DNA of 64,000 nucleotides from Candidatus Collierbacteria bacterium RIFOXYD2_FULL_45_13 (GTDB lineage Bacteria; Patescibacteriota; Microgenomatia; UBA1400; MFAQ01): assembly GCA_001774685.1 (NCBI GenBank), contig MFAS01000001.1, positions 1,025,252 through 1,089,251 of the forward strand, given 5' to 3'. Below the pieces are notes generated by a model. The model ran no database searches. It was not told the origin of the DNA and saw only the letters and a program-made list of their open reading frames with translations. The first letter of the stretch is position 1. The number at the start of each line of letters is the position of its first letter. A program made the position numbers and the translations under genes. Positions 24,176-40,008 of this stretch are shown one piece after another.

Positions 24176-26641
<2,466 letters not shown>

Positions 26642-26642
26642 A

Positions 26643-28067
26643 TCACAGTTTATTAGTTACAAAAGCGACTAACTCATCCGCCGAGTCGGTCTGTTCCAGT
26701 AGTTTCTTCCAGGCATCGATCTGTCCCTTGGTTTTAATCAGTTCCAGTAGCTCCGCCGGAGTCCGTTCTTCCTTTTTATCCTGTCGATACCAAGCAAAAA
26801 GATAAAGCATCTCCCATTCCTCAAAAACTTTACTTCCAGACTGCCACAATAGTTTATCCATGTTTTCGCCTTTTATCAAAGTATTTTTAACTTCCTCTGT
26901 TTGTTCTGGCCCAAACTTGGTAAAGACTTTTGCCCCCTCTACGCTTTTAACCGTGGCATAGATCTCTCTTGACACATTGTGAAACAATCCGCTTCTGGTT
27001 TGTCTTCCCACTCTGGTGACAGACAAGAAAATATTCACCGCTGGCCTTATTCCATGTTGAAAACGATCAATATCAAAGTAAATATGGCCGTCGGTAATAG
27101 ACATCAAATTTGTCTGAATATATCCCGTCAGGTCCCCTCCTACACTTTCGGCAATTGCCAGACACGAAATCGATCTTTCCTTACCTTCCACTTCAAAACA
27201 ACCAGCTCTCTCCAGCAGTTTAGACTGCAAATAGAATATGTCTCCAGGATAAGAGTCCCGTCCTGGAAACTTTCCCATAATGAGCGACATCTCTCGGTAG
27301 TACTTTGCGTGAGTAGTCAGGTCATCCAAGACCACCAACACTTCACTTCCTTTATCTCTCACACTTTCGGCTATGCTCATGGCCGTAAAGGGTGCCATCA
27401 CTATCTCCGCCTGGTTCTCCCTCGCCCCAGATGCCACAATAATTACTTTATCCATAACCTTGTTTTTTATCAGCCATTCTTTGACCGCCACGATCTCACC
27501 GGCTTGTTTTCCAATGGCACAGTAAATTCCTGTCTTCCCAGCCTTTACTTGTGTGGCCAAAGTTTGCAGAGCAAACCAGGTCTTACCGGTTTTTCTTTCT
27601 CCTATCACTAGTTCTCTTTGTCCAGCTCCCAGAGGTAGAGCCAAATCAATCAAGGTGGTGCCTGTCAGTAGAGGCCTGGTAATAATTACTCGTTTCTCTA
27701 CCCCTAAGGCATCTTTGTCTATCTCTACCGACTCTGTTGTAGTACTAAGATCTTTATCTCCATCAATTACATAGCCGAGGGCCGATACGATATGTCCGAG
27801 CAGCCCGTCTCCTGCCGACACCAGTAGCTTTCGCCCCGTCCTCGCCACTCTTGTTCCCAGATCGATTGACTCTTTACAAAATACCACCACCCAAACGTAC
27901 TTCTCGTCAATTCGCGAAACATAGCCATGATGTCCGTCTTCGAAGGCAACCCCTTCATTTATTCGAGCTCCGTTTAGGCCATCGACATGGACGATATAAT
28001 CTCTCGCCGCCACCACAGTTCCAATATCTTTAATTTTTTCCTGGCAGTATTCAAAAGAGTGGATCAT
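26643..28067 (-). CDS. atpA: F1-ATPase alpha subunit, divergent
   Basis: Walker A GERKTGKT (alpha-type GDRQTGKT-like) and the alpha/beta nucleotide-binding fold pattern (VLVVLDDLTTHA...). 474 aa. Confidence 0.8.
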   Translation of the reverse strand: MIHSFEYCQEKIKDIGTVVAARDYIVHVDGLNGARINEGVAFEDGHHGYVSRIDEKYVWVVVFCKESIDLGTRVARTGRKLLVSAGDGLLGHIVSALGYVIDGDKDLSTTTESVEIDKDALGVEKRVIITRPLLTGTTLIDLALPLGAGQRELVIGERKTGKTWFALQTLATQVKAGKTGIYCAIGKQAGEIVAVKEWLIKNKVMDKVIIVASGARENQAEIVMAPFTAMSIAESVRDKGSEVLVVLDDLTTHAKYYREMSLIMGKFPGRDSYPGDIFYLQSKLLERAGCFEVEGKERSISCLAIAESVGGDLTGYIQTNLMSITDGHIYFDIDRFQHGIRPAVNIFLSVTRVGRQTRSGLFHNVSREIYATVKSVEGAKVFTKFGPEQTEEVKNTLIKGENMDKLLWQSGSKVFEEWEMLYLFAWYRQDKKEERTPAELLELIKTKGQIDAWKKLLEQTDSADELVAFVTNKL

Positions 28068-28071
28068 GGGT

Positions 28072-28839
28072 TTATAAAACGAGAATCATGTAAGCAATTA
28101 ATAATCCAAATCCCATCACTAGTCCCGTCAAAACAAAGTTCATTACCATTCCTACTCCAATTTTTTTGGCCGCTAATGGGTTTCTCCCCAGTGCTTCGAT
28201 TCCTGTCTTTCCAGATCGTCCAAAAAAGTAAAAGCCAAACGCAAAAGCAGATGCAGTGGTCAAGACAGCCAGTAAGTATCTGAGTGAGGTCAAAGGAGAC
28301 AAGAAAGGAGATCCGGCTGCCTTCTTAATATTTAGAAAAAGGTTGACTCCTCTCGTGCCAGAGTTTGATCCCGGACTATATCTAGGAGCCAGAGACACTT
28401 TTATCAAACACTCCTTAGTTATATCTGCCTCCACGCAAGGCTCCAAAGCCGTTCCCACCACATAGCCCTCAAACTCAGCCACGACCCCAACTCCAGCCCG
28501 TGTAGAGGTTGTTATATTATCTCCCACTTTTATTTTTCCACCCTGTGTCGTCACCCTCACCTGTACCGTACCGGTCGTCGTCACCAAAAAAGACCCACTT
28601 GCCGAAGAGATATCCTCAAAAGCAATCGCTGGGCTTGTCGTCACCACTCCGTAAAAAGCTGAGTCATACTCCACTTTAGATGTTTCAAAGCCGGTCAAAC
28701 CGGAAGATATTAACGTTCCGTCAGTTATCCCCTGGTCAGCTATCGGCACCGAGAGCGCCATTCCGGAAGACTGTGCCAAGACCTTTCCGGTCGAAAGTAC
28801 AAAAAGTATCAACAAGAACAGGTTCTTTATTAGTTTCAT
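28072..28839 (-). CDS. Secreted beta-rich ectodomain (~170 aa, signal peptide) fused to a C-terminal ATP-synthase subunit-c-like 2-TM hairpin that has no carboxylate
   Basis: Signal peptide MKLIKNLFLLILFVLSTGKVLAQ. C-terminal 75 aa read TM1 - GIEALGRNPLAAKKIG - TM2, closely resembling the c-subunit polar loop (GIEGIARQPEAxGKI, the RQP motif). TM2 (VGMVMNFVLTGLVMGFGLLIAYMILVL) contains no Asp/Glu. Overlaps the upstream gene by 4 nt and lies 4 nt from alpha. Confidence 0.6.
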   Translation of the reverse strand: MKLIKNLFLLILFVLSTGKVLAQSSGMALSVPIADQGITDGTLISSGLTGFETSKVEYDSAFYGVVTTSPAIAFEDISSASGSFLVTTTGTVQVRVTTQGGKIKVGDNITTSTRAGVGVVAEFEGYVVGTALEPCVEADITKECLIKVSLAPRYSPGSNSGTRGVNLFLNIKKAAGSPFLSPLTSLRYLLAVLTTASAFAFGFYFFGRSGKTGIEALGRNPLAAKKIGVGMVMNFVLTGLVMGFGLLIAYMILVL

Positions 28840-31800
28840 AGAGTTTGAGCTGATTCAGAGGCAACTGGGGTTGTTTCAGGTATCGGAGTCGGCGTTGAGG
28901 TTGGTGTAGGAGATACCTCCGATGTCGGTGTCGTCTGCCCGTCTAACTGCGGAGCTGTTAGTGTGGCCGATGGGGTTGCTGGCAAACTCTGTATGACTCT
29001 ATCTACCTGTTCTTTCGTTAAACAAGTTTTATTGTTTACATCACCCACACAAAGGGTTGTAAAAGTGGCCTCTTTAGCAAACAGTTTATCAGCCATCTCG
29101 GTCAGTCTGGTTTCAATGGCCATTATTCGGTCTTTCAAGTTTTCTATGGCTACAGACAAAGAGTTCGCCAAGTCGCTAAGCGAATTCCATTGCGACTCAG
29201 AAATAGCCGCACTCCTCGACGATAGAGCAATCTCATCTATCAAGAGTTGTTGTTCTTGTATAGCTTTGGCCAGCACCGGAATTAACTGAGTAGTGTAGAG
29301 TCCCAGTGTTCCATCGTTATTGCTACCCACCAGTTCAGGAAACACGTCACGCACTTCTTGAGCTATAAATCCCAGTGCGCCATCTCCTGTAGACTTCCAG
29401 TTGTAGGACACCGGTCGTAGCCCCAAGACCTTATCCAGAGTATCATCCCCCAAGCTCAACACATCTTTCTTTAAGTTAATATCAGAAGGATCTGTGTTGG
29501 TTAGGACTCCGCTATTACTATAGACAGTCCCTGTCCCCAAAGTGGTTGTCACGGTTCCATCATTTCCAATGGTGAACTTGGTCACCCCAGATGAGCTAGC
29601 CGTCAAAATATTCTGGTCCCCTGTCTGATCAAAAATCGCCAGTGCCTTGCCGGTCACTGCGCCAGTGACGTGGAGTTTGGAAGTTGGGGCAGTGGTGCCG
29701 ATACCTACGTTGCCAGAAGAATCAATACGCAGACGTTCGGTTCCACCAGTTACCCAGGCAAAAGTGTTGGCGGCGGGGTTTATCCAATACGTGTCCGAGT
29801 CGTTGCTTAAAATAATTCTTGCCCTGGTTTGGTCGTCAGGATATTCGTTGGTGCCTATTCGAAAATATTCTGAGCCATCAATAAGAAACCTGTGTCCATA
29901 GGTTGATGATTTATTGTACCCTGAAGCGTAGGTGGTTACTTGGGTATTGTTGGAAATATAGTTACTGCTAGTAAATGAATCGTTAAGGTATAAAGTGTTA
30001 TTTAGTGTTAGGGCGCCACTAAAATGGCTTGTACCTACAACCTCCAGCTTATACCCTGGATTTGTTGTCCCAATGCCCACATTCCCACTTCCCAAAATAG
30101 TCATTTTTTCTGTGGGGGTGTTATCTGATGTTCCGGTTGACCCAGCTGTTGCTGTGTAGAGGTGAAGTGCGGATGTGCCAGTTCCTGTTGATATTCCAGA
30201 TTTTAAGGTTAAATCTCCACCCGCAAGATCAGCTGTACCTGAAATTGCTCCACCCGAAGAAAGTGTTAATCCTTGTCCTGCCGTAGCTGCAGTAGTATTC
30301 CTCTCCATCCAGATTGTCCTTGCTGCAGTTCCATCAAGAGACAAAAGTTGAGTTGGAGAAGTAGTTCCAATTCCTATCAGTCCATTTTGATCAATTCTTA
30401 TTCTTGTAACTGGGTCATCGACGCCAGACGGTTTAGTCATTATATCAAAATTTCCCGTCATCAGACTTCGTGTTGTACTGCCGGTAACTACGGTTGATTG
30501 AAATCCAGCAACGTGCGTGACCGAATCGGTGGTTTTGGCATAAAAATATACCGCGCCAAGGGGATTATCACTACCGGGTACTGCGTTGAATTTACCGATG
30601 TATAAATAACCACCCAAATTATCAGCAGCCGTTGCATTGCTGTTGCCTATATATAGCCGACCATGATTTGTGGAATTATTGTAGATATTTACCTGCGTGC
30701 CGACGACTTCTAGCGGTGCTCCAGGAGCCGTGGTACCAATGCCAACCAGGCCTGTGTTTCCAATGTATAGATAATCCCCATCGTTGGCAGCCGCAGAAGA
30801 AATCATAAGTAGGGGATCTGTGCTAAACTTAACAACTTCAAGAGTTCCATCAGGAGAACTATCTTTTATGCCAACTCTTGAATTGGCTTCAATTCTCATC
30901 ATTTCAGAACCATTATCAATACTAAATATATGCCCGTATCCAGCTCCTGCGTTAAACCCAGCGTTATAACGCATGGTTTGACCATCGGTTGAACGTTGAA
31001 TATAGTTAAAATACCCTTGGGCATCGTTGCCTCCAGGTACAGAAAAGCCAATCCTTGGGGTAGCCGCAGCAGCTAGGTTGAGGGTGTTGTAGGTAGTATC
31101 TGTTCCCCCAATGGTCATTTTTCCGGTGCGATCGATAACTAACTTGGGGGTTCCTGATGCTGAGGCAACTAAGATATTCTGATTCCCAGTCTCATCAAAA
31201 ATTGCCAAGGCCTTGCCGGTTACGGCCCCTGAGACGTGGAGTTTTCCTGTTGGGGCTGTGGTGCCGATACCGACGTTGCCGGTACTGGCTTTGATGGTTA
31301 ATCTTTCGGCGTGAGTAGAGTCTGTGGGATTTCCGGTCCACGTCCAAACACTCACATCACCCCCAGAATTATAACCTCCACCATAAAAATCTAAGCCATA
31401 TGCCGTACTGCCCAATGTGATGCTTGCACCATTACTTGAACCGTTTGTGTAGTTAATTGACCAAGGATTCGTGTTACCTTGCGTTCCAATTCCACCTGTA
31501 GACATGTAAATATAGTTTGAAGCAGTCCCCGCTTGAACGGTTCCGTATGCTGTCAAGTTACCGGAGCGGTCAAGAGTTAGTTTTGTTGAACCTGAGGCCG
31601 AGGCTACCAAGATATTCTGATTCCCAGTTTCATCAAAAATAGCCAGAGCCTTGCCGGTTACTGCTCCAGAGACGTGGAGTTTGGAGGTGGGTGCCGTGGT
31701 GCCAATGCCGACTCCCGTTGTAGTAACGTTTAATATATTTGTTCCTCCCGCTATCAACGACGCAATGTCTGATCCAGCTGATCCTAAACCAGTATTAAGG

Positions 31801-33341
31801 TCGTTTCTGAATACAAAAACAGGAACTGTACTACTGGCAATACTATTAACTAAGTAGGCGTAGTTACTTGAGCTTCCGCCACCCATAGACAGTGTACCAC
31901 CGGCTACAGAAATATTACTATTGATTAGGCCATCGCCATTGATGGTTAGTTTTCCATTTACTGTGAGTGCTTGATTCCATTGGCTGTCACCAATAATTGC
32001 TTCTCCGTTGACTGTTAGCATTTTACTCGGTTCAGTTGTTCCAATCCCCACTCTTCCGGTTGACGTATCCACATACAGATCATCAGTATTGACGGCGAAG
32101 TCGCCGGTGGTGGAGAGGGCCACATTTAAGTTTTGTCCTGCAAGGGGGGTAATGGTTAAGGCACCGGAGGAGGAAAGACCGGTACCCATGTAAAAATTAC
32201 CAGAAGTGTCTATGTAACTTACTCTTGTTCCACTGTGTCCGTAAATATTGAGGGGGTAGTCAGTTGCCGGAGCGCTGGTAGCATCAGAGTAACCAAGAAT
32301 AATATCTCCATCTTCGTCGATCAGGGCTTTTTGGTAACCGGCAATGGCCAGGCCCAGGAGTTGGCCGTTGGCAGCACTGGTCGTGGGGTTAATAATGACT
32401 GAGCCTTGAGAGATAGTGGTATCGGTGGGGGCGTAGGAGAAGGTAGTTTGTCCGGAAAAGGCTTGGGAAGAGTTGGAATTAATGTTAGCCACCCAGAGGT
32501 TGTTGAAGCGTTTGGTGGTCGACCCCAGATCACTACCCAAATCCGTATCCGGTAGGAAGGATTCCCCGTTGGTAATGGTGGCGTTGCCAAAGGTCAAGGT
32601 GTCCACAACTACACTGTCCGTAGTGGTTGTTAAGCCCACACTTGTACCATTGTCTGTCCAACCGGAGAGTGCATAATTTGGTTCTACTGCCGTAAAGGTA
32701 ATCTTGTCATTGGTGGCATCGGTGGTAATGGTTACACCACTACCAGCAAAGGTTAAGGTGTCACCATTTGTGTCTGTAACCACATCACTTTGTCCGCTGA
32801 CACTGATGGTTTTGAAAATACTTTGGGAAGAGCCTGTGTCTGAGTTGGTGACTTCGTTACCACTGACACTAATACCACCACCAGCCGAGAGGGACCGTAT
32901 GCCGGAGTTGCTGATCTTCAGTCCGTCAATGGAAATGCCGTCACCGGCAGATAGAGTCAAGTCTCCCGTCTTCGTCTGCAGTGAAGTAACACCCGTATTG
33001 GTCAGTGTTGGTGTCTGCCCCAAAGAAATACTGATTCCCTTACCGGCAGTTAGAGAATAGATGATATTGGGAGCAGAAATATCTTGTAGGAATGTGGCCA
33101 GCCCCGAGAAGGTAGTCGTGTCGGCAAACTGTGCCGGGACATTGATGGAAAAGATATAGTTAGCAGGAGATTCTTCAGCCGTTGTGTCAGCCAAGACACT
33201 CCCTGGAGTAGTACTCTCACCCAATACTTGAGTAGACCTTTCAGCCATCACTAGTCGTATTTCCTTGAAGCAGATTACCAATCCAACCAGTACCAGCGGT
33301 ATAGACAGGAGATATTGTAGTTTACCAAACTTGGTAGTCAT
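28836..33341 (-). CDS. Giant (1501 aa) tail-fibre-like surface protein with C-terminal Peptidase_S74 (intramolecular chaperone) domain, three ~40-aa repeats and Thr/Pro-rich tail
   Basis: N-terminal signal/anchor helix. G/T/S/N-rich beta-structure-like sequence. Triplicated repeat VGIGTTAPTxKLHVxGAVTGKALAIFDxTGxQNIL. C-terminal ...DKVLGLRPVSYNWKSTGDGALGFIAQEVRDVFPELV matches the S74 chaperone domain of phage tail fibres/endosialidases, followed by a coiled coil and PT-rich end. Confidence 0.8.
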   Translation of the reverse strand: MTTKFGKLQYLLSIPLVLVGLVICFKEIRLVMAERSTQVLGESTTPGSVLADTTAEESPANYIFSINVPAQFADTTTFSGLATFLQDISAPNIIYSLTAGKGISISLGQTPTLTNTGVTSLQTKTGDLTLSAGDGISIDGLKISNSGIRSLSAGGGISVSGNEVTNSDTGSSQSIFKTISVSGQSDVVTDTNGDTLTFAGSGVTITTDATNDKITFTAVEPNYALSGWTDNGTSVGLTTTTDSVVVDTLTFGNATITNGESFLPDTDLGSDLGSTTKRFNNLWVANINSNSSQAFSGQTTFSYAPTDTTISQGSVIINPTTSAANGQLLGLAIAGYQKALIDEDGDIILGYSDATSAPATDYPLNIYGHSGTRVSYIDTSGNFYMGTGLSSSGALTITPLAGQNLNVALSTTGDFAVNTDDLYVDTSTGRVGIGTTEPSKMLTVNGEAIIGDSQWNQALTVNGKLTINGDGLINSNISVAGGTLSMGGGSSSNYAYLVNSIASSTVPVFVFRNDLNTGLGSAGSDIASLIAGGTNILNVTTTGVGIGTTAPTSKLHVSGAVTGKALAIFDETGNQNILVASASGSTKLTLDRSGNLTAYGTVQAGTASNYIYMSTGGIGTQGNTNPWSINYTNGSSNGASITLGSTAYGLDFYGGGYNSGGDVSVWTWTGNPTDSTHAERLTIKASTGNVGIGTTAPTGKLHVSGAVTGKALAIFDETGNQNILVASASGTPKLVIDRTGKMTIGGTDTTYNTLNLAAAATPRIGFSVPGGNDAQGYFNYIQRSTDGQTMRYNAGFNAGAGYGHIFSIDNGSEMMRIEANSRVGIKDSSPDGTLEVVKFSTDPLLMISSAAANDGDYLYIGNTGLVGIGTTAPGAPLEVVGTQVNIYNNSTNHGRLYIGNSNATAADNLGGYLYIGKFNAVPGSDNPLGAVYFYAKTTDSVTHVAGFQSTVVTGSTTRSLMTGNFDIMTKPSGVDDPVTRIRIDQNGLIGIGTTSPTQLLSLDGTAARTIWMERNTTAATAGQGLTLSSGGAISGTADLAGGDLTLKSGISTGTGTSALHLYTATAGSTGTSDNTPTEKMTILGSGNVGIGTTNPGYKLEVVGTSHFSGALTLNNTLYLNDSFTSSNYISNNTQVTTYASGYNKSSTYGHRFLIDGSEYFRIGTNEYPDDQTRARIILSNDSDTYWINPAANTFAWVTGGTERLRIDSSGNVGIGTTAPTSKLHVTGAVTGKALAIFDQTGDQNILTASSSGVTKFTIGNDGTVTTTLGTGTVYSNSGVLTNTDPSDINLKKDVLSLGDDTLDKVLGLRPVSYNWKSTGDGALGFIAQEVRDVFPELVGSNNDGTLGLYTTQLIPVLAKAIQEQQLLIDEIALSSRSAAISESQWNSLSDLANSLSVAIENLKDRIMAIETRLTEMADKLFAKEATFTTLCVGDVNNKTCLTKEQVDRVIQSLPATPSATLTAPQLDGQTTPTSEVSPTPTSTPTPIPETTPVASESAQTL
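29600..29720. repeat. Intragenic ~100-nt DNA repeat of the tail-fibre gene (copy 1; ~80% identical to copies at 31170-31290 and 31605-31720)
   Basis: ...ATATTCTG.T.CCC.GTCTCATCAAAAAT.GCCA..GCCTTGCCGGT.AC.GC.CC.G.GACGTGGAGTTT... recurs three times and encodes the ALAIFDxTGxQNIL repeats. Confidence 0.7.
31170..31290. repeat. Intragenic DNA repeat of the tail-fibre gene, copy 2 (~90% identical to copy 3)
   Basis: See 29600-29720. Confidence 0.7.
31605..31720. repeat. Intragenic DNA repeat of the tail-fibre gene, copy 3
   Basis: See 29600-29720. Confidence 0.7.
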
Positions 33342-33465
33342 GACTTAGTCAAAGCTTTTCAGGCATATGGCACAACACGCCACAACCGATGGCTGAACAT
33401 AAGTTTCAGTATATAGATTATCGGGGGAAATGGGTATATGTCAGAATAGGTCAGATACCACTTCT

Positions 33466-34197
33466 TTACTGCGCTGGCGTGGGAGATATTTCTAAGGTAG
33501 GAATGATTTCCACTGTAGGAGTTGGACTTACCTGTGTAAGTTTGAGATTTGCCCCCACAATCACCAACAAATCTACTTGTTGAGTTCCGGTCATTGGAAC
33601 CACTTCCCCTTCTGGAAGCACGGAAACTACTCCACCTATTAAATCAGCCATCTGTTTAGCCAGTTCCGGTTTCTTTCCGGATATATCGACCACCACACTC
33701 TTTGCATAATCATTCTTTTTCGCCGATTCTTCACCTAATACATTTATATTTGTCACCTGAGCCTTAATCGAAGCCGAAAAGGTTTTTGCCAGGCCAACCG
33801 TCGCTGTTCCATTCAGGACTACTATATTTATCGGTGCCTGAGATTCACCCAAATTTATCGGAGCAATATCTACGATTCTCCCGGTTGACGGACGAAACAA
33901 AATAGCCTTCCCTGATTTTGTGTAGATAATCACCTTGTCCCCATTTTCCGCTCTGGCAAAAAAGGGTTGGTCTTTCAGCTTCTCTTTGTCGAGAACTGTA
34001 GCGACCGAAGGTTCTTCGTCGGGCAAATCCATAAATTTGGATAGTGCTTTAGTCACCGTCTTGATTTCCTCTTTTGATGCTGCTGTCGGATCTTTCAATA
34101 GTTTCTGAGCTCTTCTATTTTGGTTAAAGAAATAAGCCGTGCTAGACAGAGATACCAAGGATACCAAAATTAAAAGAAACACAAGTATTTTTTTCAT
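33466..34197 (-). CDS. Membrane-anchored LytR_C (LytR/CpsA/Psr C-terminal) domain protein
   Basis: N-terminal TM. The C-terminal segment INIVVLNGTATVGLAKTF...NINVLGEESAKKNDYAKSVVVDISG...DLLVIVGANL fits the LytR_C pattern. Pro/Thr-rich tail. Confidence 0.6.
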   Translation of the reverse strand: MKKILVFLLILVSLVSLSSTAYFFNQNRRAQKLLKDPTAASKEEIKTVTKALSKFMDLPDEEPSVATVLDKEKLKDQPFFARAENGDKVIIYTKSGKAILFRPSTGRIVDIAPINLGESQAPINIVVLNGTATVGLAKTFSASIKAQVTNINVLGEESAKKNDYAKSVVVDISGKKPELAKQMADLIGGVVSVLPEGEVVPMTGTQQVDLLVIVGANLKLTQVSPTPTVEIIPTLEISPTPAQ

Positions 34198-34247
34198 AGT
34201 GTGGTCTTATTCTAATACTTTTTTCTCCTATTACAAGCGCTTGCCAC

Positions 34248-36506
34248 CTAAACAGCAACCATCTCTTTTTCCGCTCGCTTCAGGAGTACCGCATTTGTCG
34301 CCACAATGATCGAAGACACACTCATTAGTAGCGCCGAGACTTCAGGTCGGAGCGAAATACCATAAGCCGGATACAAAACACCGGCAGCCACCGGAATCGC
34401 CAGCAGATTGTAGATCGAAGCCCAAAAAAGATTTTGTTTCATTTTTCGTACCGTCGCCTTAGAAAGTTTTATTGCCCGAAGAATATCTGCCGGATCAGAC
34501 TTCATCAGCACCACCCTGGCCGTTTCAATCGCCACGTCCGTCCCTGCTCCAATGGCGATACCAACATCCGACTGAGCCAAGGCCGGGGCATCATTCACCC
34601 CATCCCCCACCATGGCAACAAACTTGCCTTCATCTTGTAATTTTTTAACATAAGAAGCTTTCTCTCCGGGCAGTACCTCAGCAAAAATTCTCTCGATTCC
34701 TAGTTGCTTCCCAATCGCTTCCGCAGTTTTTTGATTGTCTCCGGTGATCATGGCCACTTCCAGTCCCATTTCTTTCATTCGAGTTACTGCCAGCTTGGCA
34801 TTTTCTTTTACCGGGTCAGACGCCGCCGCTACCCCCGCCAGCTTTTTATTCACCGCAAGTATCATTATCGTTTTTCCTTCAGACAAGAGCCTATCTATCT
34901 CACTCTTCAGGGTCGTTGTATCAACTTTATAATCTTTCATCAGTTTTTCGGTACCTACCAAGACATGCTTACCTGCCACCACCGCCTCCACTCCATGCCC
35001 CGCCAAGTTCTTAAATTTTTCCACCTTTGTCGAAATAGTTATTTTTCTTCTCTTCGCCTCTTCCAATATCGCCAAGCTCAACGGGTGAGATGACTTTGCT
35101 TCCACCGCTCCATCGAGACCAATAATTTCATTTTCAGTAAAGCCACTTGCCGCAATCACATCCGTAATTCTCGGCTTTCCTTCCGTTAGTGTTCCGGTCT
35201 TGTCTAGCACTACTGCTTGAATTTTTGAAACCTGTTCCAGGGTAGGCGCATCTTTGATCAAGATATTATGTTTTGCTCCCAACCCTGTCCCTACCGCTAC
35301 CGCTGTCGGTGTTGCCAGTCCGAGCGCATCCGGGCAAGCTATAACTATCGCCGAGATAGCAAAAGTCAGAGCCAGCATCAGTGGTTGACCAAGTACAAAG
35401 TACCAAACCAAGAATGTAATCAGACCTCCGCCTACCGCCACGATGACCAGATACTGAGCAAATCTATCTGCAATTTTTTGTCCTGGCGCTTTCGAGTTCT
35501 GAGCTGTCTCCACCATCTTGACGATCTGAGCGAGTGCAGTGTCTTCTCCTATTTTTGTCGCTTTGAATCGTACCGAGCCCGAAGTATTTATCGAACCGCC
35601 AATCACCTTATCACTCACATTTTTTACGACTGGTAGTGACTCCCCTGTTACGAGTGATTCGTCGATCGCTGTTTCTCCTTCGGTAATTTCTCCATCCACC
35701 GGCACTTTGTCCCCGGGTTTCAGAATCAGAATGTCGCCAAGTCTTACTTCAGATGTTGCTATCAGAGATTCTTTTCCGTTCTTCCACAGTCTGGCTTGAG
35801 GTGGCACCAGATCAAAAAGTGCTTGGAGGGCATCAGTCGTCCCTCTTCGGCTTTTCATCTCCATCCAGTGGCCAAACAAAACAAAGGTGGTGAGCATGGC
35901 TGCCGCTTCATAAAAAGACTCCTCACTCCCCAGCAGTGTGAGCACCACACTAAAAGCATAAGCCGCTGTTATACCTACAGCGATGAGCACCGCCATGTTT
36001 AATGCCTTGGCTTGTAATGCCTTGTAAGTAGAGTACAGAAAAATCCAGCCGGAATAAAAATAAACCGGTGTAGTTAAGAAGAACATTATCCAGCTCGCAG
36101 AAATCGGCATCGGCAGCTTCAATCCAAATATATTTGTTCCGAGAGGAGAATAAGCCACTATCGGTATGGTCAAAAGAAGGGACACAAAAAATTTATTTCG
36201 AATATCTTCTTCCATCATCTTCGCCATTTCCCGGCCGGCCAATCCGGTGTGTTCCATTCCCATCGCCATGGTCATACTCATTTTAAATTTTTCCCAAAAT
36301 GACATTTTTACACCGGGCTTCATCTCATGCTCCATCACCTGGTCACCATGACCCTTTTTATTGTGGTCCATTTTCATCTCCCCACCTGCAGGGCCTGGCC
36401 CTGCAGGCTTGTCATGTTTCATCACAAGCTCCATTCCGCACTTGGGGCACTTCCCTGGTTTGTCTAAGATAACCTCTGTGTGCATCGGACAGGTGTAGTT
36501 CATCAT
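34248..36506 (-). CDS. copA: Heavy-metal (Cu-type) P1B-ATPase with N-terminal CPxH/CxxC metal-binding (HMBD-like) domain, Met/His-rich stretch and atypical CPD transmembrane motif
   Basis: N-terminus YTCPMHTEV...KCPKCGMEL; MxM/His-rich segment; TGES (LVTGESLPV), DKTGTLT, GDGVNDAPAL. Ion-pathway motif IACPDALGLATP (CPD, verified on the DNA). The REP palindrome is inserted in frame at 36385-36407 and encodes PAGPGPAG. Confidence 0.85.
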   Translation of the reverse strand: MMNYTCPMHTEVILDKPGKCPKCGMELVMKHDKPAGPGPAGGEMKMDHNKKGHGDQVMEHEMKPGVKMSFWEKFKMSMTMAMGMEHTGLAGREMAKMMEEDIRNKFFVSLLLTIPIVAYSPLGTNIFGLKLPMPISASWIMFFLTTPVYFYSGWIFLYSTYKALQAKALNMAVLIAVGITAAYAFSVVLTLLGSEESFYEAAAMLTTFVLFGHWMEMKSRRGTTDALQALFDLVPPQARLWKNGKESLIATSEVRLGDILILKPGDKVPVDGEITEGETAIDESLVTGESLPVVKNVSDKVIGGSINTSGSVRFKATKIGEDTALAQIVKMVETAQNSKAPGQKIADRFAQYLVIVAVGGGLITFLVWYFVLGQPLMLALTFAISAIVIACPDALGLATPTAVAVGTGLGAKHNILIKDAPTLEQVSKIQAVVLDKTGTLTEGKPRITDVIAASGFTENEIIGLDGAVEAKSSHPLSLAILEEAKRRKITISTKVEKFKNLAGHGVEAVVAGKHVLVGTEKLMKDYKVDTTTLKSEIDRLLSEGKTIMILAVNKKLAGVAAASDPVKENAKLAVTRMKEMGLEVAMITGDNQKTAEAIGKQLGIERIFAEVLPGEKASYVKKLQDEGKFVAMVGDGVNDAPALAQSDVGIAIGAGTDVAIETARVVLMKSDPADILRAIKLSKATVRKMKQNLFWASIYNLLAIPVAAGVLYPAYGISLRPEVSALLMSVSSIIVATNAVLLKRAEKEMVAV
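36385..36407. repeat. REP-like 23-bp palindrome CCTGCAGGGCCTGGCCCTGCAGG, in frame inside copA (encodes PAGPGPAG)
   Basis: Exact copy of the palindrome found four times around the RAYT gene. Confidence 0.9.
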
Positions 36507-36580
36507 TTCATTTTATCCTTTTTCAAATATTTTGGTCTCTTCCCAATTTACTCCAAATCAACTACAATTTGTAGTAGCTT

Positions 36581-36889
36581 ATGAAAAAAGCTATTGGCAC
36601 TATCTTTCCATTTCTAATAATTCATCTCATTTGCTGCGGCAGTATTCTTCTGTTTCTTATCAGTTCCGGCTATTTATTACTACTTTCCAACGAAAGTCAA
36701 AACAAATGGTTTCTCCTCCCCAGCCTTCTCGCTCTTTTCCTTGCGTGGCGGGAACTAAACAAAATTGAACAAAAACCTTGGAAGATACTACTAACCGTTA
36801 TTATTTATCTGATCATCAGTTACATTTTTATTACTTATTTATTCATCCCTTGGTGGATACCGGGCTATGAAGGTGGACCATTACTCTAA
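36581..36889 (+). CDS. MerT-like heavy-metal transport membrane protein
   Basis: First TM carries a vicinal Cys pair (HLICCGSILLFLISSG), and ...SLLALFLAWRELNK resembles MerT (...ACCLGPL... / ...ALFFAWRRIYR). 102 aa, 3 TM. Confidence 0.55.
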   Translation: MKKAIGTIFPFLIIHLICCGSILLFLISSGYLLLLSNESQNKWFLLPSLLALFLAWRELNKIEQKPWKILLTVIIYLIISYIFITYLFIPWWIPGYEGGPLL

Positions 36890-37637
36890 CTTGAAAAATA
36901 CCAATCGGACACGCTTTTGGCAAATAGATGCTGTCCGTGGCTTAGCCGTCGTGGGTATGGTCATTTATCACCTACTTTTTGATCTCGAATATCTTTTTCA
37001 GCTTCCTCTAAATGTTAGTCATCTGCCTCTCATTGCATTAGCCAGATCAGTAGCGGTGACCTTTATTCTACTTATCGGCTTTTCTGTCGCCCTCAAATTT
37101 GAAACAATCAAGCGGTACGGACCAAAGCAGGTCATTCTCGCGTTTGTAAAAAAAGCAGTCACGATTTCTCTTTACGCTCTGCTCATAACCTTAGTCACCT
37201 ATCTAATTTTTCCACAGGGAACCATCATCTTCGGCATTCTCCATTTTATATCCCTATCGTTAGTGCTCCTGATACCTTTCCTATATCTACGCTCAAACGG
37301 GTTGGTGGCTCTATTAGCCACCGTTACTTTTGTTCTTGGTCTGGCAGTTCCTAATGTCACAGCTTCTCACAGCTGGCTCCTCATTCTCGGAATGACATCT
37401 TCCACTTTTTCCAGTCTCGACTACTTTCCCCTTCTCCCATGGTTCGCAGTCGTACTTTTTGGATTAGTTCTGGGCCGGAAATACTCACCTGCCCTCCAAA
37501 AACCAAGTCCTTCAAAAACTCCCCCATTATTTTTGTATAGAATAGTTTCTAAGCTCGGCAAACACTCTCTACCTATATATCTATGGCATCAGCCGGTGCT
37601 TTGGACTATATTATTTGTTATCAAATACTTCTTATGA
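36867..37637 (+). CDS. DUF1624-family (HGSNAT-like acyltransferase fold) polytopic membrane protein
   Basis: N-terminal RFWQIDAVRGLAVVGMVIYHLLFD matches the DUF1624 signature. ~8 TM helices. Confidence 0.55.
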   Translation: MKVDHYSNLKNTNRTRFWQIDAVRGLAVVGMVIYHLLFDLEYLFQLPLNVSHLPLIALARSVAVTFILLIGFSVALKFETIKRYGPKQVILAFVKKAVTISLYALLITLVTYLIFPQGTIIFGILHFISLSLVLLIPFLYLRSNGLVALLATVTFVLGLAVPNVTASHSWLLILGMTSSTFSSLDYFPLLPWFAVVLFGLVLGRKYSPALQKPSPSKTPPLFLYRIVSKLGKHSLPIYLWHQPVLWTILFVIKYFL

Positions 37638-37672
37638 ACCCACCTTCCCACCATTACGAAGAAACCATTTAA

Positions 37673-38056
37673 TTATTTACTTTCGTCAATAATCCCTCTA
37701 ATTACTGCATCAACCTCATCAGGCAGATTGCCCAGATCGGCCTCAGGAAAAAATTGAGGCAAAATGATCGGTCTCATCCCTGAAATATACGTCGCTCCAT
37801 CCTTCCGGTAGACATTTATCTTACATGGCAGACAAAGACCCATTTTAATGTCCGCTTGTAGTACCGCGTAAGCACTTTTGGCATTACAGATCTCAATAAT
37901 CTTCAAAGGCTCAATTTCCAAGCCTTTTTCTTTCAAGGTTTCAGCTACATCGTGAATATAAAGCACCCTAAAACCAGCCTTCAGTGTCTCCCGCTCAACC
38001 GCACCGACCGCTTCGTCAAATGATTTTTTTGTAGTAACAGTGTAATCAAAATTCAT
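37673..38056 (-). CDS. DUF302 domain protein
   Basis: 127 aa. The pattern ...ICNAKSAYAVLQADIKMGLCLPCKINVYRKDGATYI fits DUF302. Confidence 0.6.
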   Translation of the reverse strand: MNFDYTVTTKKSFDEAVGAVERETLKAGFRVLYIHDVAETLKEKGLEIEPLKIIEICNAKSAYAVLQADIKMGLCLPCKINVYRKDGATYISGMRPIILPQFFPEADLGNLPDEVDAVIRGIIDESK

Positions 38057-38121
38057 AAAAATTATTAACTAATAACAACCATAACTTTATCACCTTCAGT
38101 CTTTTGTCACAGGCCTGCAGT

Positions 38122-38520
38122 CTATGGAACATTTACCACAAAGTCCTTGTTTTTAGTGCTTCCCTCCGGCATGCTTGCTGTGATACGGACACGCCAAGGT
38201 CCTTGCATCGAAAGATTTCCGGTGACTATGTATCGCCCTTTGCCCTGAGAGGTCGCGGTTGCTCGCTGGGTACCCATATTCATCGTGGTCATATTTAGAT
38301 CAAATGACACTGTGGCATTGTCAACAGGCTTACCGTCCGCACCCCTAACATTAATGATAAAAGTTGCTTGTCCAGGTTGTAATGGATTTGGATCGGTAGT
38401 AAGAGAAATCACTTCGCTATTGGTAGTCGCACCCAAAACCGAAGATTTTACCTTCCAACTCATGACACCAATTAACCCTACTGCAATTACAAACATCGTT
38501 AACAATATTTTATTGCTCAT
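38122..38520 (-). CDS. YtkA/FixH-like secreted Ig-fold protein (possible Cu-binding)
   Basis: Signal/anchor helix, then a ~100-aa beta domain (...GKGRYIVTGNLSMQGPWRVRITAS) resembling YtkA-family copper-associated lipoproteins. Confidence 0.45.
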   Translation of the reverse strand: MSNKILLTMFVIAVGLIGVMSWKVKSSVLGATTNSEVISLTTDPNPLQPGQATFIINVRGADGKPVDNATVSFDLNMTTMNMGTQRATATSQGKGRYIVTGNLSMQGPWRVRITASMPEGSTKNKDFVVNVP

Positions 38521-38528
38521 CTTTATAT

Positions 38529-39014
38529 TTATTTTTTATAATTAACCACACACGATGAATTTCGACTTCTTATAAGCACAAAAAGAGAAACCGATAGGAG
38601 AAATATAGACAAGTAAGACAGTTCCGCTCCCCGATAAGGTAAATAAACGAGAGAACCACCGAGTCCTAGTAATGACAATATTGGCAGTCCGCAAGCCACA
38701 CACCCACTCCCCACAATTCCCAATAAAGAATTTCCACCCACCACTACTTGCAGCTTATCAAATTTATTAAGGACCACGATCTTCTCAAAAAGCAAACTAA
38801 GATTCGCACCAGTTAAGACCGCGATCAAAAACAAAATGACCAGTCCAGATAAAGTCATTGATGTCCACATACCCTGAATTAAAGCAAACAGGATCTGAAC
38901 TTTGTAACCAATTCCATAGCTACCTATCAAAGTATCTCTGGCCAAGCTACTATTCATCAGCAGGGTGACAAACAGTAGATAAAGACTGGAAATGGTAACA
39001 ATTGAGGCAAACAC
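38529..39014 (-). CDS. Polytopic membrane protein with intramembrane CxxC (GSGCVACG), putative thiol-disulfide oxidoreductase partner of DsbA (DsbB/VKOR-like role)
   Basis: 161 aa with 4-5 TM, a CVAC motif in a helix, and a position immediately downstream of the DsbA-like gene with a 3-nt gap. Confidence 0.4.
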   Translation of the reverse strand: MFASIVTISSLYLLFVTLLMNSSLARDTLIGSYGIGYKVQILFALIQGMWTSMTLSGLVILFLIAVLTGANLSLLFEKIVVLNKFDKLQVVVGGNSLLGIVGSGCVACGLPILSLLGLGGSLVYLPYRGAELSYLSIFLLSVSLFVLIRSRNSSCVVNYKK

Positions 39015-39016
39015 GT

Positions 39017-39805: not shown

Positions 39806-39898
39806 ATATTTTGGATGTAACTAATAAACAATTACCCTACTACAAGTGTAGTAAGGAAATCAACAATTGTCAACAGAGGGTGTTGAATAACTTCGTCT

Positions 39899-39922: not shown

Positions 39923-40008
39923 CTATATAAATAAGTTCCAGATGGATTCCCGATCAGGTCGGGAATGACAAATAAATGCATTATTCAACGGTCTCGTCAA
40001 CACCAATT

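What the first reader, a model, noticed from the sequence alone, without database searches (positions are those of the whole stretch)
28836..33341. 1501-aa tail-fibre-like adhesin with Peptidase_S74 intramolecular-chaperone domain, three protein repeats and long near-identical intragenic DNA repeats
Seen: C-terminal ...DVLSLGDDTLDKVLGLRPVSYNWKSTGDGALGFIAQEVRDVFPELV... is the signature of the self-cleaving chaperone domain of phage tail fibres and endosialidases. The protein also has a three-fold repeat VGIGTTAPTxKLHVxGAVTGKALAIFDxTGxQNIL. The underlying DNA repeats (29600-29720, 31170-31290, 31605-31720) are ~80-90% identical over ~100 nt. Established: S74 domains drive trimerisation of beta-helical fibres and are then auto-cleaved. 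Long direct repeats inside a gene promote recombinational length variation. Inference: a trimeric, phase- or length-variable surface fibre, plausibly an attachment organelle of an episymbiont, whose expression is tied to the ATPase module.
Basis: partly seen in the sequence, partly recalled or inferred. Interest (0 to 1): 0.7.

Follow-up and report, generated by a model that had tools for sequence, protein, structure and literature searches.

The report
Membrane-anchored self-cleaving surface fibre, Collierbacteria
This gene of an ultrasmall groundwater bacterium (Candidatus Collierbacteria) encodes a long, phage-tail-fibre-like surface fibre that very probably folds as a trimer and then cuts off its own folding domain; its repeats are old protein modules rather than a DNA switch, and across relatives the gene always sits beside an unusual ATPase gene cluster.

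Summary
The ORF (28836-33341, minus strand, 1501 aa) is real. It carries a genuine Peptidase_S74 chaperone domain (Pfam E 1e-13). The Ser1286/Lys1291 dyad is invariant in 24 homologues, and the predicted fold matches the MyRF and endosialidase chaperones.

The shaft has eight G-x-VGIGTTxP "capping-loop" modules, and three of them carry a near-invariant 40-aa unit. Their DNA is only 76-83% identical. The longest shared exact run is 20 nt, and dS is about 1 against dN of 0.03-0.13. These are old protein modules under purifying selection, not near-identical DNA.

I found no simple-sequence tracts and no length variants among 11 near-identical database copies, so phase or length variation by repeats is unsupported. 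Three metagenome contigs do carry a nonsense allele (Leu1046 to TGA).

The closest characterised relatives are the Bdellovibrio MAT fibres. This family differs in four ways: an N-terminal membrane anchor, a 400-aa base domain found so far only in Patescibacteria, an optional cytoplasmic MerR-type HTH domain (absent here), and conserved adjacency to a divergent F1-like ATPase cluster in 14 of 17 informative related loci.

The gene body also has a codon-third-position strand skew opposite to its neighbours.

The parts
28836..33341 (-). Fibre gene, 1501 codons plus stop. It is identical to NCBI 'hypothetical protein A3K29_05890' of Candidatus Collierbacteria.
33261..33314 (-). N-terminal hydrophobic membrane anchor or signal anchor (aa 10-27, LQYLLSIPLVLVGLVICF). 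Only about 9 residues lie on the cytoplasmic side, and there is no HTH domain.
   Evidence: Read directly from the sequence. Homologues have either the same kind of anchor or HTH plus TM.
32052..33164 (-). Family-defining N-terminal 'base' domain (aa about 60-430). It includes short AGxGISxDGxxITN repeats and the LPDTDLGSDLGSxxxRFNNLWVANINSN block.
   Evidence: It is 40-69% identical in about 60 homologues, and the alignment has 34 invariant columns. A profile search finds 196 cluster representatives at E<=1e-30. Only the 26-80 aa DLGS...RFNNLWV motif recurs in viral contigs.
29487..32051 (-). Shaft (aa 431-1285) built of eight modules, each opened by the capping-loop motif G-x-VGIGTTxPxxxL.
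   Evidence: Sequence matches to the solved Bdellovibrio MAT fibres 8ond, 8oml, 8ojn and 8on4 run through this motif. PHROG tail-fibre families score 1e-35 and 3.5e-31.
31593..31712 (-). Repeat unit R1 (aa 544-583), VGIGTTAPTSKLHVSGAVTGKALAIFDETGNQNILVASAS.
31155..31274 (-). Repeat unit R2 (aa 690-729), 39/40 aa identical to R1 but only 83% identical in DNA.
29589..29708 (-). Repeat unit R3 (aa 1212-1251). It is the last shaft module before the cleavage site, and the 3' compositional change point falls within it.
29328..29486 (-). Peptidase_S74 core (aa 1286-1338). The predicted nucleophile is Ser1286 (29484-29486) and the predicted base is Lys1291 (29469-29471). The predicted self-cleavage lies between Pro1285 and Ser1286.
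   Evidence: S, D and K invariant in 24 sequences; pLDDT 85-95. The cleavage position is set by analogy with Bd3182 S782 (PMC10769870).
29076..29327 (-). Remainder of the chaperone domain: a small beta/alpha part and one long helix (aa 1350-1422), expected to form the trimeric coiled coil.
28839..29057 (-). C-terminal extension released together with the chaperone. It comprises a conserved two-cysteine beta-hairpin plus helix (LCVGDVNNKTCLTKEQVDRVIQSLP) and a Pro/Thr/Ser-rich tail.
29637..32954 (-). Compositionally deviant gene body (aa about 130-1235). Its four-fold-site GC skew is opposite to that of every other minus-strand gene in the window.
30205..30205 (-). Polymorphic site. Codon 1046 is TTA (Leu) here and TGA (stop) in three near-identical metagenome contigs.
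33417..33444 (-). Only promoter-like hexamer pair in the 124-nt spacer upstream of the gene (CTGACA-16-GATAAT). The number of such sites in the region is not above chance.
28072..28839 (-). Downstream gene orf255, whose start overlaps the fibre stop (ATGA). It has a signal peptide, a conserved ectodomain of about 150 aa, and a C-terminal two-helix hairpin with a GIEALGRNPLAAK loop. It is the conserved neighbour of the fibre gene in relatives.
24176..28067 (-). F1-like ATPase genes alpha (26643-28067), gamma (25802-26641), beta (24424-25812) and epsilon (24176-24427). All score below NCBIfam's cutoffs for genuine F0F1 subunits.
33466..34197 (-). Membrane-anchored LytR_C-domain protein with a Pro/Thr-rich tail. 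It is the second conserved neighbour of the fibre gene.

Best explanation
The gene encodes a cell-surface fibre of a Candidatus Collierbacteria (Microgenomates, Patescibacteria) cell.

Proposed mechanism:
- The protein is inserted in the cytoplasmic membrane by one N-terminal hydrophobic helix.
- The next 400 residues form a conserved base domain that sits in or on the envelope.
- The following 850 residues form a trimeric beta-structured shaft of eight modules, each opened by the capping-loop motif known from Bdellovibrio MAT fibres.
- The C-terminal S74 intramolecular chaperone brings three chains into register and then cuts itself off at Ser1286, using Lys1291 as base.
- This leaves a mature fibre of about 1285 aa with a free distal tip, and releases a 216-aa fragment.
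- By analogy with phage tail fibres and MAT fibres, the fibre most likely binds another cell or a surface.

What is shown: the ORF, the S74 domain with its conserved dyad and fold, the module motif and its homology to solved MAT fibres, the anchor sequence, the chromosomal context and the family distribution.

What is inferred: trimerisation, self-cleavage, surface display and adhesion.

The three 40-aa repeats are ancient shaft modules kept by purifying selection on the protein. They are not a recombination switch.

The gene belongs to a conserved neighbourhood with a LytR_C membrane protein and a divergent F1-like ATPase cluster. In this genome it is co-directional with that cluster and overlaps its first gene.
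For: S74 domain:
- Pfam E 1.1e-13.
- S1286, D1287 and K1291 are invariant in 24 homologues.
- The AF2 model has pLDDT 85-95 over the S74 core.
- The top Foldseek PDB matches are the MyRF ICA domain 7dc3 (E 1.3e-4), the endosialidase chaperone 3gw6 and the GA-1 chaperone 3gud.

Shaft:
- Eight capping-loop motifs are present.
- phmmer matches the solved Bdellovibrio MAT fibres 8ond/Bd2133 (1.7e-9), 8oml, 8ojn and 8on4.
- The motif V-G-G/N-pi-x-x-P-x-x-x-L and S74 self-cleavage are described experimentally for those fibres (PMC10769870).
- PHROG tail-fibre families match.

Cellular rather than viral origin:
- 23S and 5S rRNA lie in the same window, and the flanking genes are housekeeping or metal-transport genes.
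- The same neighbourhood recurs in other Microgenomates species.
- The full N-domain is absent from IMG/VR.

Repeats as protein modules:
- dN is 0.03-0.13 against dS of 1.0-1.2.
- The same unit occurs 31 times in 17 homologues, up to 39/40 identical across species.
- The pattern is the same in the Woesebacteria orthologue.
Against: - No trimer model could be made. The monomer AF2 model of the base domain was unusable (pLDDT 53), and the shaft part of the C-terminal model was poor.
- Self-cleavage, export and surface display are untested.
- The anchor is judged by eye from an 18-residue hydrophobic run. One public gene call (P0001, 1471 aa) starts at Met31 and would lack it.
- No ligand or host is known.
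- A nonsense allele segregates in the population, so the intact fibre is not indispensable under all conditions.
Confidence: 0.72

Rival explanations
1. The fibre is one part of a conserved multi-gene apparatus of Microgenomates, with two possible modes of action. In the first, the F1-like ATPase (alpha, gamma, beta, epsilon), the orf255 membrane protein with its ectodomain, and the LytR_C protein work with the fibre. The ATPase would power assembly, movement or release of the fibre, as the F1-like ATPases of mycoplasmas serve the gliding legs or the MIB-MIP surface system. In the second, the HTH-bearing versions of the fibre regulate the divergently transcribed ATPase operon in response to contact.
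For: - The fibre gene lies next to orf255 and the ATPase genes in 12 of 14 informative GTDB-species loci holding the base domain, and in the window. It also lies there in 2 of 3 informative loci reached from the orf255 side.
- The arrangement is divergent in most loci and co-directional in the window and in Daviesbacteria L019.
- Alpha, beta, gamma and epsilon all score below NCBIfam cutoffs for genuine F0F1 subunits: 337 against 484, 416 against 463, 46 against 194, and no match. Alpha scores equally well against the Mycoplasma mobile gliding ATPase family (343 bits).
- No a, b or c subunit genes are found in the window or in any locus.
- At least 8 atp-adjacent homologues, and about a quarter of the 120 listed homologues, have an N-terminal MerR/HTH_17 domain followed by a TM helix.
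- Precedents exist in mycoplasmas: PMC3369863, PMC8406192 and PMC12994834.
Against: - Synteny is not function, and Patescibacteria gene order may simply be conservative here.
- The ATPase may be the cell's only, if odd, ATP synthase. More distant clusters (L027, L028) contain a weak OSCP/delta-like gene and one more unknown gene.
- The c-subunit likeness of orf255 is not significant (hhalign probability 1.5%, E 0.034).
- The alpha and beta scores also fall below the cutoffs of the mycoplasma families.
- The window protein has no HTH domain.
- One locus (L028) has the cluster without a fibre.
Confidence: 0.28
2. The three direct DNA repeats promote RecA-type or slippage recombination, so the population carries fibres of different length or switched off. 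The gene would then be a phase- or length-variable adhesin.
For: - Direct repeats of 120-160 nt exist, and their identity is 7-10 points above the codon-usage expectation.
- The copy number of the 40-aa unit differs between species, from 0 to 4.
- The 3' compositional change point lies within R3, which would fit an old recombination junction.
- The population is heterogeneous for an intact or truncated gene.
Against: - The longest identical run is 20 nt, divergence is 17-24%, and dS is saturated. The copies therefore have not been homogenised or exchanged recently.
- Deletions between the repeats would give proteins of 1355, 979 or 833 aa. None is seen among 11 near-identical database members, where all complete copies are 1501 aa.
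- There are no homopolymer or SSR tracts.
- The observed on/off variant is a single T-to-G nonsense substitution unrelated to the repeats.
Confidence: 0.06
3. The gene is a phage or prophage tail-fibre gene, that is, a virion part rather than a cellular organelle.
For: - PHROG tail-fibre matches.
- The S74 domain is typical of phage fibres.
- One partial database copy is named 'Long tail fiber protein p37'.
- The DLGS...RFNNLWV motif recurs in viral contigs.
Against: - No phage genes lie nearby, and the neighbours are ATPase, metal-transport and envelope genes.
- The N-terminal membrane anchor does not fit a virion protein.
- The same chromosomal neighbourhood recurs in many species.
- The whole base domain is not found in 2.9 million viral contigs.
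- orf255 and LytR_C keep the background strand skew.
Confidence: 0.03
4. The fibre is a structural envelope component, such as a spacer, an S-layer-like coat or a wall tether. It would have no specific ligand, rather than acting as an adhesin.
For: - The most conserved parts are the base domain and the 40-aa shaft unit, not a variable tip.
- The neighbour is a LytR_C envelope protein.
- There is a single copy in this window.
Against: - Family members differ greatly in their shafts and inserted domains, such as F5/8 type C, FG-GAP and pectate-lyase-like repeats. This is the pattern of ligand-binding mosaics.
- Relatives carry tandem arrays of different fibres.
- All characterised S74 fibres bind ligands (PMC10769870).
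Confidence: 0.12

Closest known systems
Bdellovibrio bacteriovorus MAT (mosaic adhesive trimer) fibres, S74 subgroup, e.g. Bd3182 and Bd2133 (Caulton et al. 2024, PMC10769870)
   Same: - Both are chromosomally encoded, roughly 1000-aa phage-like fibres of a bacterium that lives on other cells.
- Both have a shaft with the V-G-G/N-pi-x-x-P-x-x-x-L capping-loop motif.
- Both end in a C-terminal S74 chaperone with SDxxxK.
- In both, one end is conserved and the rest is mosaic.
- Direct sequence matches reach E 1.7e-9.
   Different: - This protein has an N-terminal transmembrane anchor instead of a cleaved signal peptide followed by a 130-aa MAT base domain.
- Its 400-aa base domain was found here only in Patescibacteria-type sequences.
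- Many family members add a cytoplasmic MerR-type HTH domain.
- The family shows conserved synteny with an F1-like ATPase cluster.
- The host is a presumably monoderm-like ultrasmall bacterium.
- There are no experimental data.
Phage tail fibres and tailspikes with a C-terminal intramolecular chaperone domain (K1F endosialidase 3gw6, GA-1 neck appendage 3gud, T5 pb1), and eukaryotic MyRF (7dc3)
   Same: They share the S74 fold and the Ser-Lys dyad. They also share the expected logic of trimerise first, then self-cleave.
   Different: This protein is not part of a virion. It is membrane anchored and much longer upstream of the chaperone. It also carries an extra Cys-hairpin and a Pro/Thr tail after the chaperone.
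Mycoplasma F1-like X0 ATPases (Type 2 gliding motor of M. mobile; Type 3 associated with MIB-MIP)
   Same: In both cases a genome-reduced, host-dependent bacterium has a divergent alpha/beta/gamma/epsilon cluster without canonical Fo genes. The cluster has its own membrane proteins and is genetically tied to large surface proteins.
   Different: - This concerns the neighbouring genes, not the fibre itself.
- The scores fall below those families' cutoffs.
- The accessory genes differ.
- It is unknown whether a genuine F1Fo exists elsewhere in the genome.
- No functional link has been shown.
Membrane-tethered one-component regulators (ToxR/CadC type)
   Same: Many homologues, though not this protein, have the layout of a cytoplasmic DNA-binding domain, a single TM helix and an extracytoplasmic part. 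They sit divergently from a conserved operon.
   Different: The HTH is of the MerR/excisionase type, and the extracytoplasmic part is a fibre of 1000-2500 aa. The window protein lacks the HTH altogether.

Membership tests
Peptidase_S74 / C-terminal intramolecular chaperone domain | Match to PF13884 above the gathering score | tested here: met
   51.7 bits against a cutoff of 22, E 1.1e-13, at aa 1286-1338
Peptidase_S74 / C-terminal intramolecular chaperone domain | Catalytic Ser-Lys dyad in an S-D-x-x-x-K motif at the start of the domain | tested here: met
   S1286-D-I-N-L-K1291. S, D and K are invariant in an alignment of 24 homologues.
Peptidase_S74 / C-terminal intramolecular chaperone domain | Chaperone fold (a small beta/alpha core followed by a long helix) | tested here: met
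   The AF2 core has pLDDT 85-95 and a long helix at aa 1350-1422. The top Foldseek hits are 7dc3, 3gw6 and 3gud.
Peptidase_S74 / C-terminal intramolecular chaperone domain | Autoproteolytic release after trimerisation | not testable with these tools
   This needs expression and SDS-PAGE of the wild type against S1286A.
MAT superfamily (Bdellovibrio) | Shaft with the capping-loop motif V-G-G/N-pi-x-x-P-x-x-x-L and sequence similarity to solved MAT fibres | tested here: met
   Eight motifs are present. Matches are 8ond at 1.7e-9, 8oml at 5.6e-7, 8ojn at 3.8e-5 and 8on4 at 1e-4.
MAT superfamily (Bdellovibrio) | Conserved beta-rich MAT domain of about 130 aa directly after a signal peptide | not testable with these tools
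   No MAT N-domain sequence or structure was available, since the PDB entries cover only the tips. Here the region is a TM anchor plus a 400-aa domain whose full-length matches all look patescibacterial.
MAT superfamily (Bdellovibrio) | Trimeric fibre displayed on the cell surface | not testable with these tools
   The monomer AF2 model of the base domain is unusable (pLDDT 53), and no multimer prediction was available.
Phage tail fibre (virion component) | Encoded within a phage or prophage gene set | tested here: not met
   The neighbours are cellular. The chromosomal synteny is conserved. The full base domain is absent from IMG/VR.
Contingency locus (phase- or length-variable adhesin) | Simple-sequence or homopolymer tract in the gene or promoter, or long identical repeats able to recombine | tested here: not met
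   There is only one G6 run and one (TA)4, and TRF scores are no higher than 33. The longest identical repeat run is 20 nt.
Contingency locus (phase- or length-variable adhesin) | Length or frame variants among near-identical genomes | tested here: not met
   Among the 11 members of the 90% cluster there is no repeat-interval deletion and no frameshift. The only variant is a nonsense SNP allele in 3 contigs.
Mycoplasma-type F1-like X0 ATPase system (for the neighbouring cluster) | Alpha/beta/gamma/epsilon-like genes without canonical a, b, c and delta genes in the cluster | tested here: met
   More distant relatives do have a weak OSCP-like gene.
Mycoplasma-type F1-like X0 ATPase system (for the neighbouring cluster) | Membership of the MMOB1660/1670 or MSC_0618/0619 families at their cutoffs | tested here: not met
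   Scores are 343 against 600, 333 against 850, 357 against 570 and 241 against 520 bits.
Mycoplasma-type F1-like X0 ATPase system (for the neighbouring cluster) | Presence alongside a separate genuine F1Fo operon in the same genome | not tested
Membrane-tethered HTH regulator | Cytoplasmic DNA-binding domain before the TM helix | tested here: not met
   The window protein has 9 residues before the anchor and no HTH hit. Homologues such as P0002, P0010 and P0017 do have one.

The most novel reading that the evidence does not exclude
Microgenomates carry a conserved surface apparatus that has not been described. It consists of a membrane-anchored, S74-matured giant fibre (usually with a cytoplasmic MerR-type HTH head), a LytR_C envelope protein, a secreted-domain membrane protein with a c-subunit-like hairpin lacking the carboxylate (orf255), and a divergent F1-like ATPase. 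These parts would work together in one of two ways: as an ATP-driven attachment or motility device analogous to the mycoplasma F1-like X0 systems, or as a contact-sensing circuit in which the fibre's HTH head controls the divergently transcribed ATPase operon. The window would then show a derived form in which the HTH was lost and the fibre gene was joined to the ATPase operon. The foreign strand skew of the gene body would be the trace of that rearrangement or of an allele import.
Probability: 0.22. Interest if true: 0.85.

Novelty: new variant of a known kind. Interest (0 to 1): 0.58.

Why it matters
How Patescibacteria outside the Saccharibacteria find and hold on to hosts is largely unknown, and type IV pili are the only well-studied device.

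This family is large. The base-domain profile finds 196 cluster representatives at E<=1e-30 and about 1000 at E<=1e-10. It is built like the prey-recognition fibres of Bdellovibrio and the receptor-binding fibres of phages, so it is an obvious candidate for host recognition in Microgenomates.

The S74 self-cleavage and the binding tip could be tested directly with recombinant fragments, without cultivating the organism.

The conserved pairing with an atypical F1-like ATPase recalls the two mycoplasma systems in which such ATPases serve surface proteins. Together with the HTH-TM-fibre layout of most relatives, it gives concrete hypotheses that link energy, gene regulation and attachment in these cells.

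Tried and rejected
- **AF2 monomer model of the base domain (aa 36-440, 22-sequence alignment).** Mean pLDDT was 53, so no fold search was run on it. The shaft part of the C-terminal model was also below 50.
- **Is orf255 a c-subunit fusion?** NCBIfam gives E 0.14. An HMM of those c subunits ranks several orf255 orthologues at the top of 2495 ORFs, but only at E 0.01-4. Three JGI records call members 'subunit c/K'. I treated this as a hint only.
- **Paralogues in the window.** None were found.
- **Viral contigs.** Only short motif matches were found.
- **Literature.** No paper in the library mentions both S74 and Patescibacteria. The MAT paper's supplement lists Omnitrophica and other predators but no CPR member.
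- **A clean in-genome inversion as the cause of the reversed GC skew of the gene body.** I rejected it as the sole explanation for three reasons. The AT skew of the body resembles minus-strand genes rather than plus-strand genes. Both gene ends and LytR_C keep the resident skew. An internal inversion would also destroy the reading frame.
- **Translational selection as the cause of the skew.** I rejected it because the last 270 codons of the same gene do not share the skew.
- **Assembly collapse of the repeats.** This is unlikely at 76-83% identity, and five separate assembly records agree base for base in the repeats.
- **Taxon names for distant base-domain hits.** The look-up returned almost no names.

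Full report
**1. What is there**

The window holds a 23S and a 5S rRNA gene and ordinary cellular genes, so it is a piece of a bacterial chromosome. The ORF at 28836..33341 on the minus strand is intact and encodes 1501 aa. The identical protein is in NCBI as 'hypothetical protein A3K29_05890' of Candidatus Collierbacteria. It is seen on 16 contigs, one of them 1.09 Mb long. Collierbacteria belong to the Microgenomates group of Patescibacteria. A JGI contig of 14,750 bp is 100% identical to window 26350-41099.

**2. The S74 claim holds**

- Pfam PF13884 matches aa 1286-1338 with E 1.1e-13, well above the gathering score.
- In an alignment of the C-terminal 312 aa with 23 homologues, Ser1286, Asp1287 and Lys1291 (S-D-I-N-L-K) are invariant. 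This is the SDxxxK catalytic motif of S74 domains, as described for Bdellovibrio Bd3182 and for phage proteins (PMC10769870).
- An AlphaFold2 model of aa 1190-1501 is confident over the S74 core (pLDDT 85-95). It shows one long helix at aa 1350-1422, then a beta-hairpin closed by two conserved cysteines and a short helix, then a disordered Pro/Thr-rich tail.
- The best matches in the PDB by Foldseek are the MyRF intramolecular chaperone domain (7dc3, E 1.3e-4), the endosialidase chaperone (3gw6) and the GA-1 chaperone (3gud).
- By analogy with Bd3182, where the mature fibre ends one residue before the catalytic serine, cleavage would fall between Pro1285 and Ser1286. That would release a 216-aa fragment. 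The cleavage position is an inference.

**3. Anatomy of the rest**

- Residues 10-27 (LQYLLSIPLVLVGLVICF) form the only hydrophobic helix.
- The next 400 residues are the best-conserved part of the family. They are 40-69% identical in about 60 homologues, and an alignment of 22 sequences has 34 invariant columns.
- From aa 431 to 1285 there are eight modules, each opened by G-x-VGIGTTxPxxxL. This is the 'capping loop' motif V-G-G/N-pi-x-x-P-x-x-x-L that Caulton et al. defined in the crystal structures of Bdellovibrio MAT fibres.
- A sequence search of the PDB finds exactly those proteins through this motif: 8ond (Bd2133) at E 1.7e-9, then 8oml, 8ojn and 8on4.
- PHROGs gives tail-fibre families at 1e-35 and 3.5e-31.
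- I could not model the trimer. The monomer model of the base domain was too poor to use.

**4. The repeats**

Three of the eight modules (aa 544-583, 690-729, 1212-1251) share a 40-aa unit. R1 and R2 are 39/40 identical, and R3 is 34-35/40 identical to them.

At the DNA level the cores are 83%, 77% and 76% identical. The longest shared exact run is 20 nt, and 14-15 nt for pairs involving R3. Almost all differences are synonymous: dN is 0.03-0.13 against dS of 1.0-1.2. Drawing codons at random from the gene's own usage for the same peptides gives 69-74% identity. The observed values are only 7-10 points higher (p 0.001-0.015).

The same unit occurs 31 times in 17 homologues, at one to four copies per protein, and is up to 39/40 identical to R1 in another species. 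In the Woesebacteria orthologue the copies are again saturated at synonymous sites.

The repeats are therefore old protein modules under strong purifying selection, and the DNA similarity is mostly a by-product. 'Near-identical DNA repeats' is not an accurate description.

**5. No sign of programmed variation, but a null allele exists**

- The gene and its upstream spacer have no homopolymer longer than G6 and no simple-sequence tract.
- Among the 11 members of the 90%-identity cluster, every complete copy is 1501 aa. The shorter entries are contig-end fragments or halves of one allele.
- That allele is carried by three ENA contigs that are 99.96-99.99% identical to the window. All have codon 1046 changed from TTA to TGA (window position 30205).
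- In one of these contigs it is the only difference in 7,838 bp. Another also carries G402R.
- The truncated product would lack the last shaft modules and the chaperone, so by inference it should not fold.

The population is thus heterogeneous for an intact fibre, through an ordinary point mutation rather than through the repeats.

**6. Neighbourhood**

The fibre stop overlaps the start of a 255-aa gene, orf255 (ATGA). No terminator-like site intervenes. orf255 is followed by alpha-, gamma-, beta- and epsilon-like ATPase genes. Upstream lies a membrane-anchored LytR_C-domain protein.

I then asked whether this neighbourhood is conserved.

- A scan of one genome per GTDB species with the base-domain alignment gave 17 loci in Woesebacteria, Gottesmanbacteria, Daviesbacteria and unnamed Patescibacteria, some of them in mislabelled MAGs.
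- In 12 of these loci the fibre gene lies next to orf255 and the ATPase genes, and a LytR_C gene follows the fibre in most loci where sequence downstream of the fibre is available.
- Of the five exceptions, two stop at a contig end (L011, L013), one (L008) holds the second and third fibre copies of the tandem array in L007, and two have enough flank but no ATPase genes (L018 and L021). L004, reached by protein look-up rather than by the scan, also ends about 1.2 kb upstream of its fibre gene.
- Starting instead from orf255 homologues, two of three informative loci again have a giant HTH-bearing protein directly upstream and divergent. One has none, and the fourth begins at a contig edge.
- In nearly all relatives the fibre and the ATPase cluster are divergent, with 130-700 bp between their starts. 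The window and Daviesbacteria L019 are co-directional.

The operon-like join seen here is the exception.

**7. Two features of the relatives matter for interpretation**

First, about a quarter of the listed homologues carry an N-terminal MerR/HTH_17 domain followed by a TM helix, and so do at least eight of the ATPase-adjacent ones. The layout is a cytoplasmic DNA-binding head, a membrane helix and a giant extracellular fibre. The window protein lacks the head.

Second, the ATPase is not a standard F1Fo.
- Alpha scores 337 bits against a cutoff of 484, beta 416 against 463, and gamma 46 against 194. Epsilon has no match.
- Alpha scores just as well against the Mycoplasma mobile gliding-ATPase family, although below that cutoff too.
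- No a, b or c subunit gene is present in the window or in any related locus.
- orf255 is a family of about 255-aa proteins. All named members are patescibacterial, and none has a Pfam domain. Each has a signal peptide, a conserved ectodomain and a C-terminal hairpin with the loop GIEALGRNPLAAK, but no conserved acidic residue in the last helix.
- Its likeness to subunit c is suggestive but not significant.
- More distant clusters have a weak OSCP-like gene and one more unknown gene between orf255 and alpha.

Mycoplasmas offer precedents in which F1-like ATPases lacking Fo serve surface proteins (PMC3369863, PMC8406192, PMC12994834). Whether the same holds here is open, and I give it about one chance in four.

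**8. A compositional oddity**

At four-fold degenerate third positions, every gene in the window has a negative plus-strand GC skew (-0.21 to -0.72), whichever strand encodes it. The two exceptions are the S1 gene and the fibre, which scores +0.24 from 847 sites.

Within the fibre, codons about 130-1235 have 67-72% C among G+C on the coding strand, like plus-strand genes. Codons 1-130 and 1235-1501 have 37-38%, like the other minus-strand genes. All eight codon families shift the same way. The 3' change point has a support interval of aa 1220-1295 and lies in or just after R3, before the S74 domain.

The AT skew does not fit a simple inversion, and the two gene ends, LytR_C and orf255 all keep the resident skew. 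In the Woesebacteria relative, genes on both strands show a coding-strand C excess. The best reading is that the gene body was brought in or rearranged more recently than its S74 end, most likely by recombination with a related allele. That would fit the mosaic habit of fibre genes and the unusual orientation of this locus. This reading is an inference. The statistics are moderate, with lnL gains of 9.2 and 6.3.

**9. Verdict**

- The protein is a membrane-anchored, S74-matured, MAT-like surface fibre of a Collierbacteria cell. The fold and family assignment are well supported, while adhesion is inferred.
- It is a new variant of a known kind. Cellular S74 fibres are known from Bdellovibrio, and NCBI already labels relatives 'tail fiber domain-containing protein'. 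No paper in the searchable library links S74 fibres with Patescibacteria.
- The distinctive traits are the membrane anchor, the large base domain, the optional HTH head and the conserved ATPase neighbourhood.
- The proposed repeat-driven phase or length variation should be dropped.

Noticed in passing
window 24176-28839 (minus strand): The 'ATP synthase' cluster is atypical. Its alpha, gamma, beta and epsilon genes all score below NCBIfam cutoffs, and no a, b, c or delta genes are present. It is headed by orf255, which has a signal peptide, an ectodomain and a hairpin with a c-subunit-like RNP loop but no conserved carboxylate. All named members of the orf255 family are patescibacterial (146 hits).
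   Followed up: partly
L001 10001-14305; L009 7563-12992; L010 7563-10598; L029 4801-8886 and others: Most homologues of the fibre begin with a cytoplasmic MerR/HTH_17 (excisionase-like) domain followed by one TM helix, and are transcribed divergently from the ATPase cluster. This is the layout of a membrane-tethered DNA-binding protein with an extracellular fibre of 1000-2500 aa. NCBI names some of them 'MerR family transcriptional regulator'.
   Followed up: partly
window 30205; L031 4445-4447, L032 4325-4327, L033 4402-4404: Three near-identical metagenome contigs carry a nonsense allele of the fibre gene (Leu1046 TTA to TGA). In L032 it is the only difference in 7.8 kb. L033 also has G402R (window 32138).
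   Followed up: yes
whole window; fibre body 29637-32954: The window shows a strong strand asymmetry. At four-fold degenerate sites the plus-strand GC skew is -0.2 to -0.7 for genes on either strand, which recalls the strand disparity reported for another Microgenomates genome (PMC7143001). The fibre gene body and the S1 gene are the only exceptions.
   Followed up: partly
window 33221-33341: One public gene call (P0001, 1471 aa) starts at Met31 and so omits the hydrophobic anchor. Homologues without an HTH all keep an N-terminal hydrophobic segment followed by a conserved VLG motif, which favours the 1501-aa start. The VLG could be a processing site.
   Followed up: no
window 33466-33530 and 28839-28985: The LytR_C protein and the fibre both end in similar Pro/Thr/Ser-rich tails (SPTPT...). 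In the fibre family the tail follows a conserved LLPSPTP motif. This may be a shared wall-spanning or glycosylated segment.
   Followed up: no
L007 8125-14805 and 15265 to the locus end; L008 290-5230 and 7905-11444 (Gottesmanbacteria OY969569.1; the second L007 ORF and the first L008 ORF are the same gene): Three fibre genes with the same base domain but different bodies lie in tandem next to the ATPase cluster, followed by two LytR_C genes. This is a repertoire like the MAT family of Bdellovibrio. The first two lack an obvious anchor at the called start.
   Followed up: no
window 34248-36506, 43126-46533, 46827-48362: There are two heavy-metal P-type ATPases (one with an HMBD domain, one with two HMA domains) and a DsbD_2/HMA/cupredoxin protein. 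Together they look like a copper or heavy-metal handling region beside the fibre locus.
   Followed up: no
window 10499-14344 (+), 3917-5749 (-), 14349-16085 (-), 51605-52942 (-): Several large ORFs (1281, 610, 578 and 445 aa) have no Pfam match at E<=1e-4. They are unrelated to the fibre by tblastn.
   Followed up: no
window 60270-64000: 5S rRNA and the 3' part of 23S rRNA lie on the minus strand. ARAGORN found no tRNA gene in the whole 64 kb.
   Followed up: no
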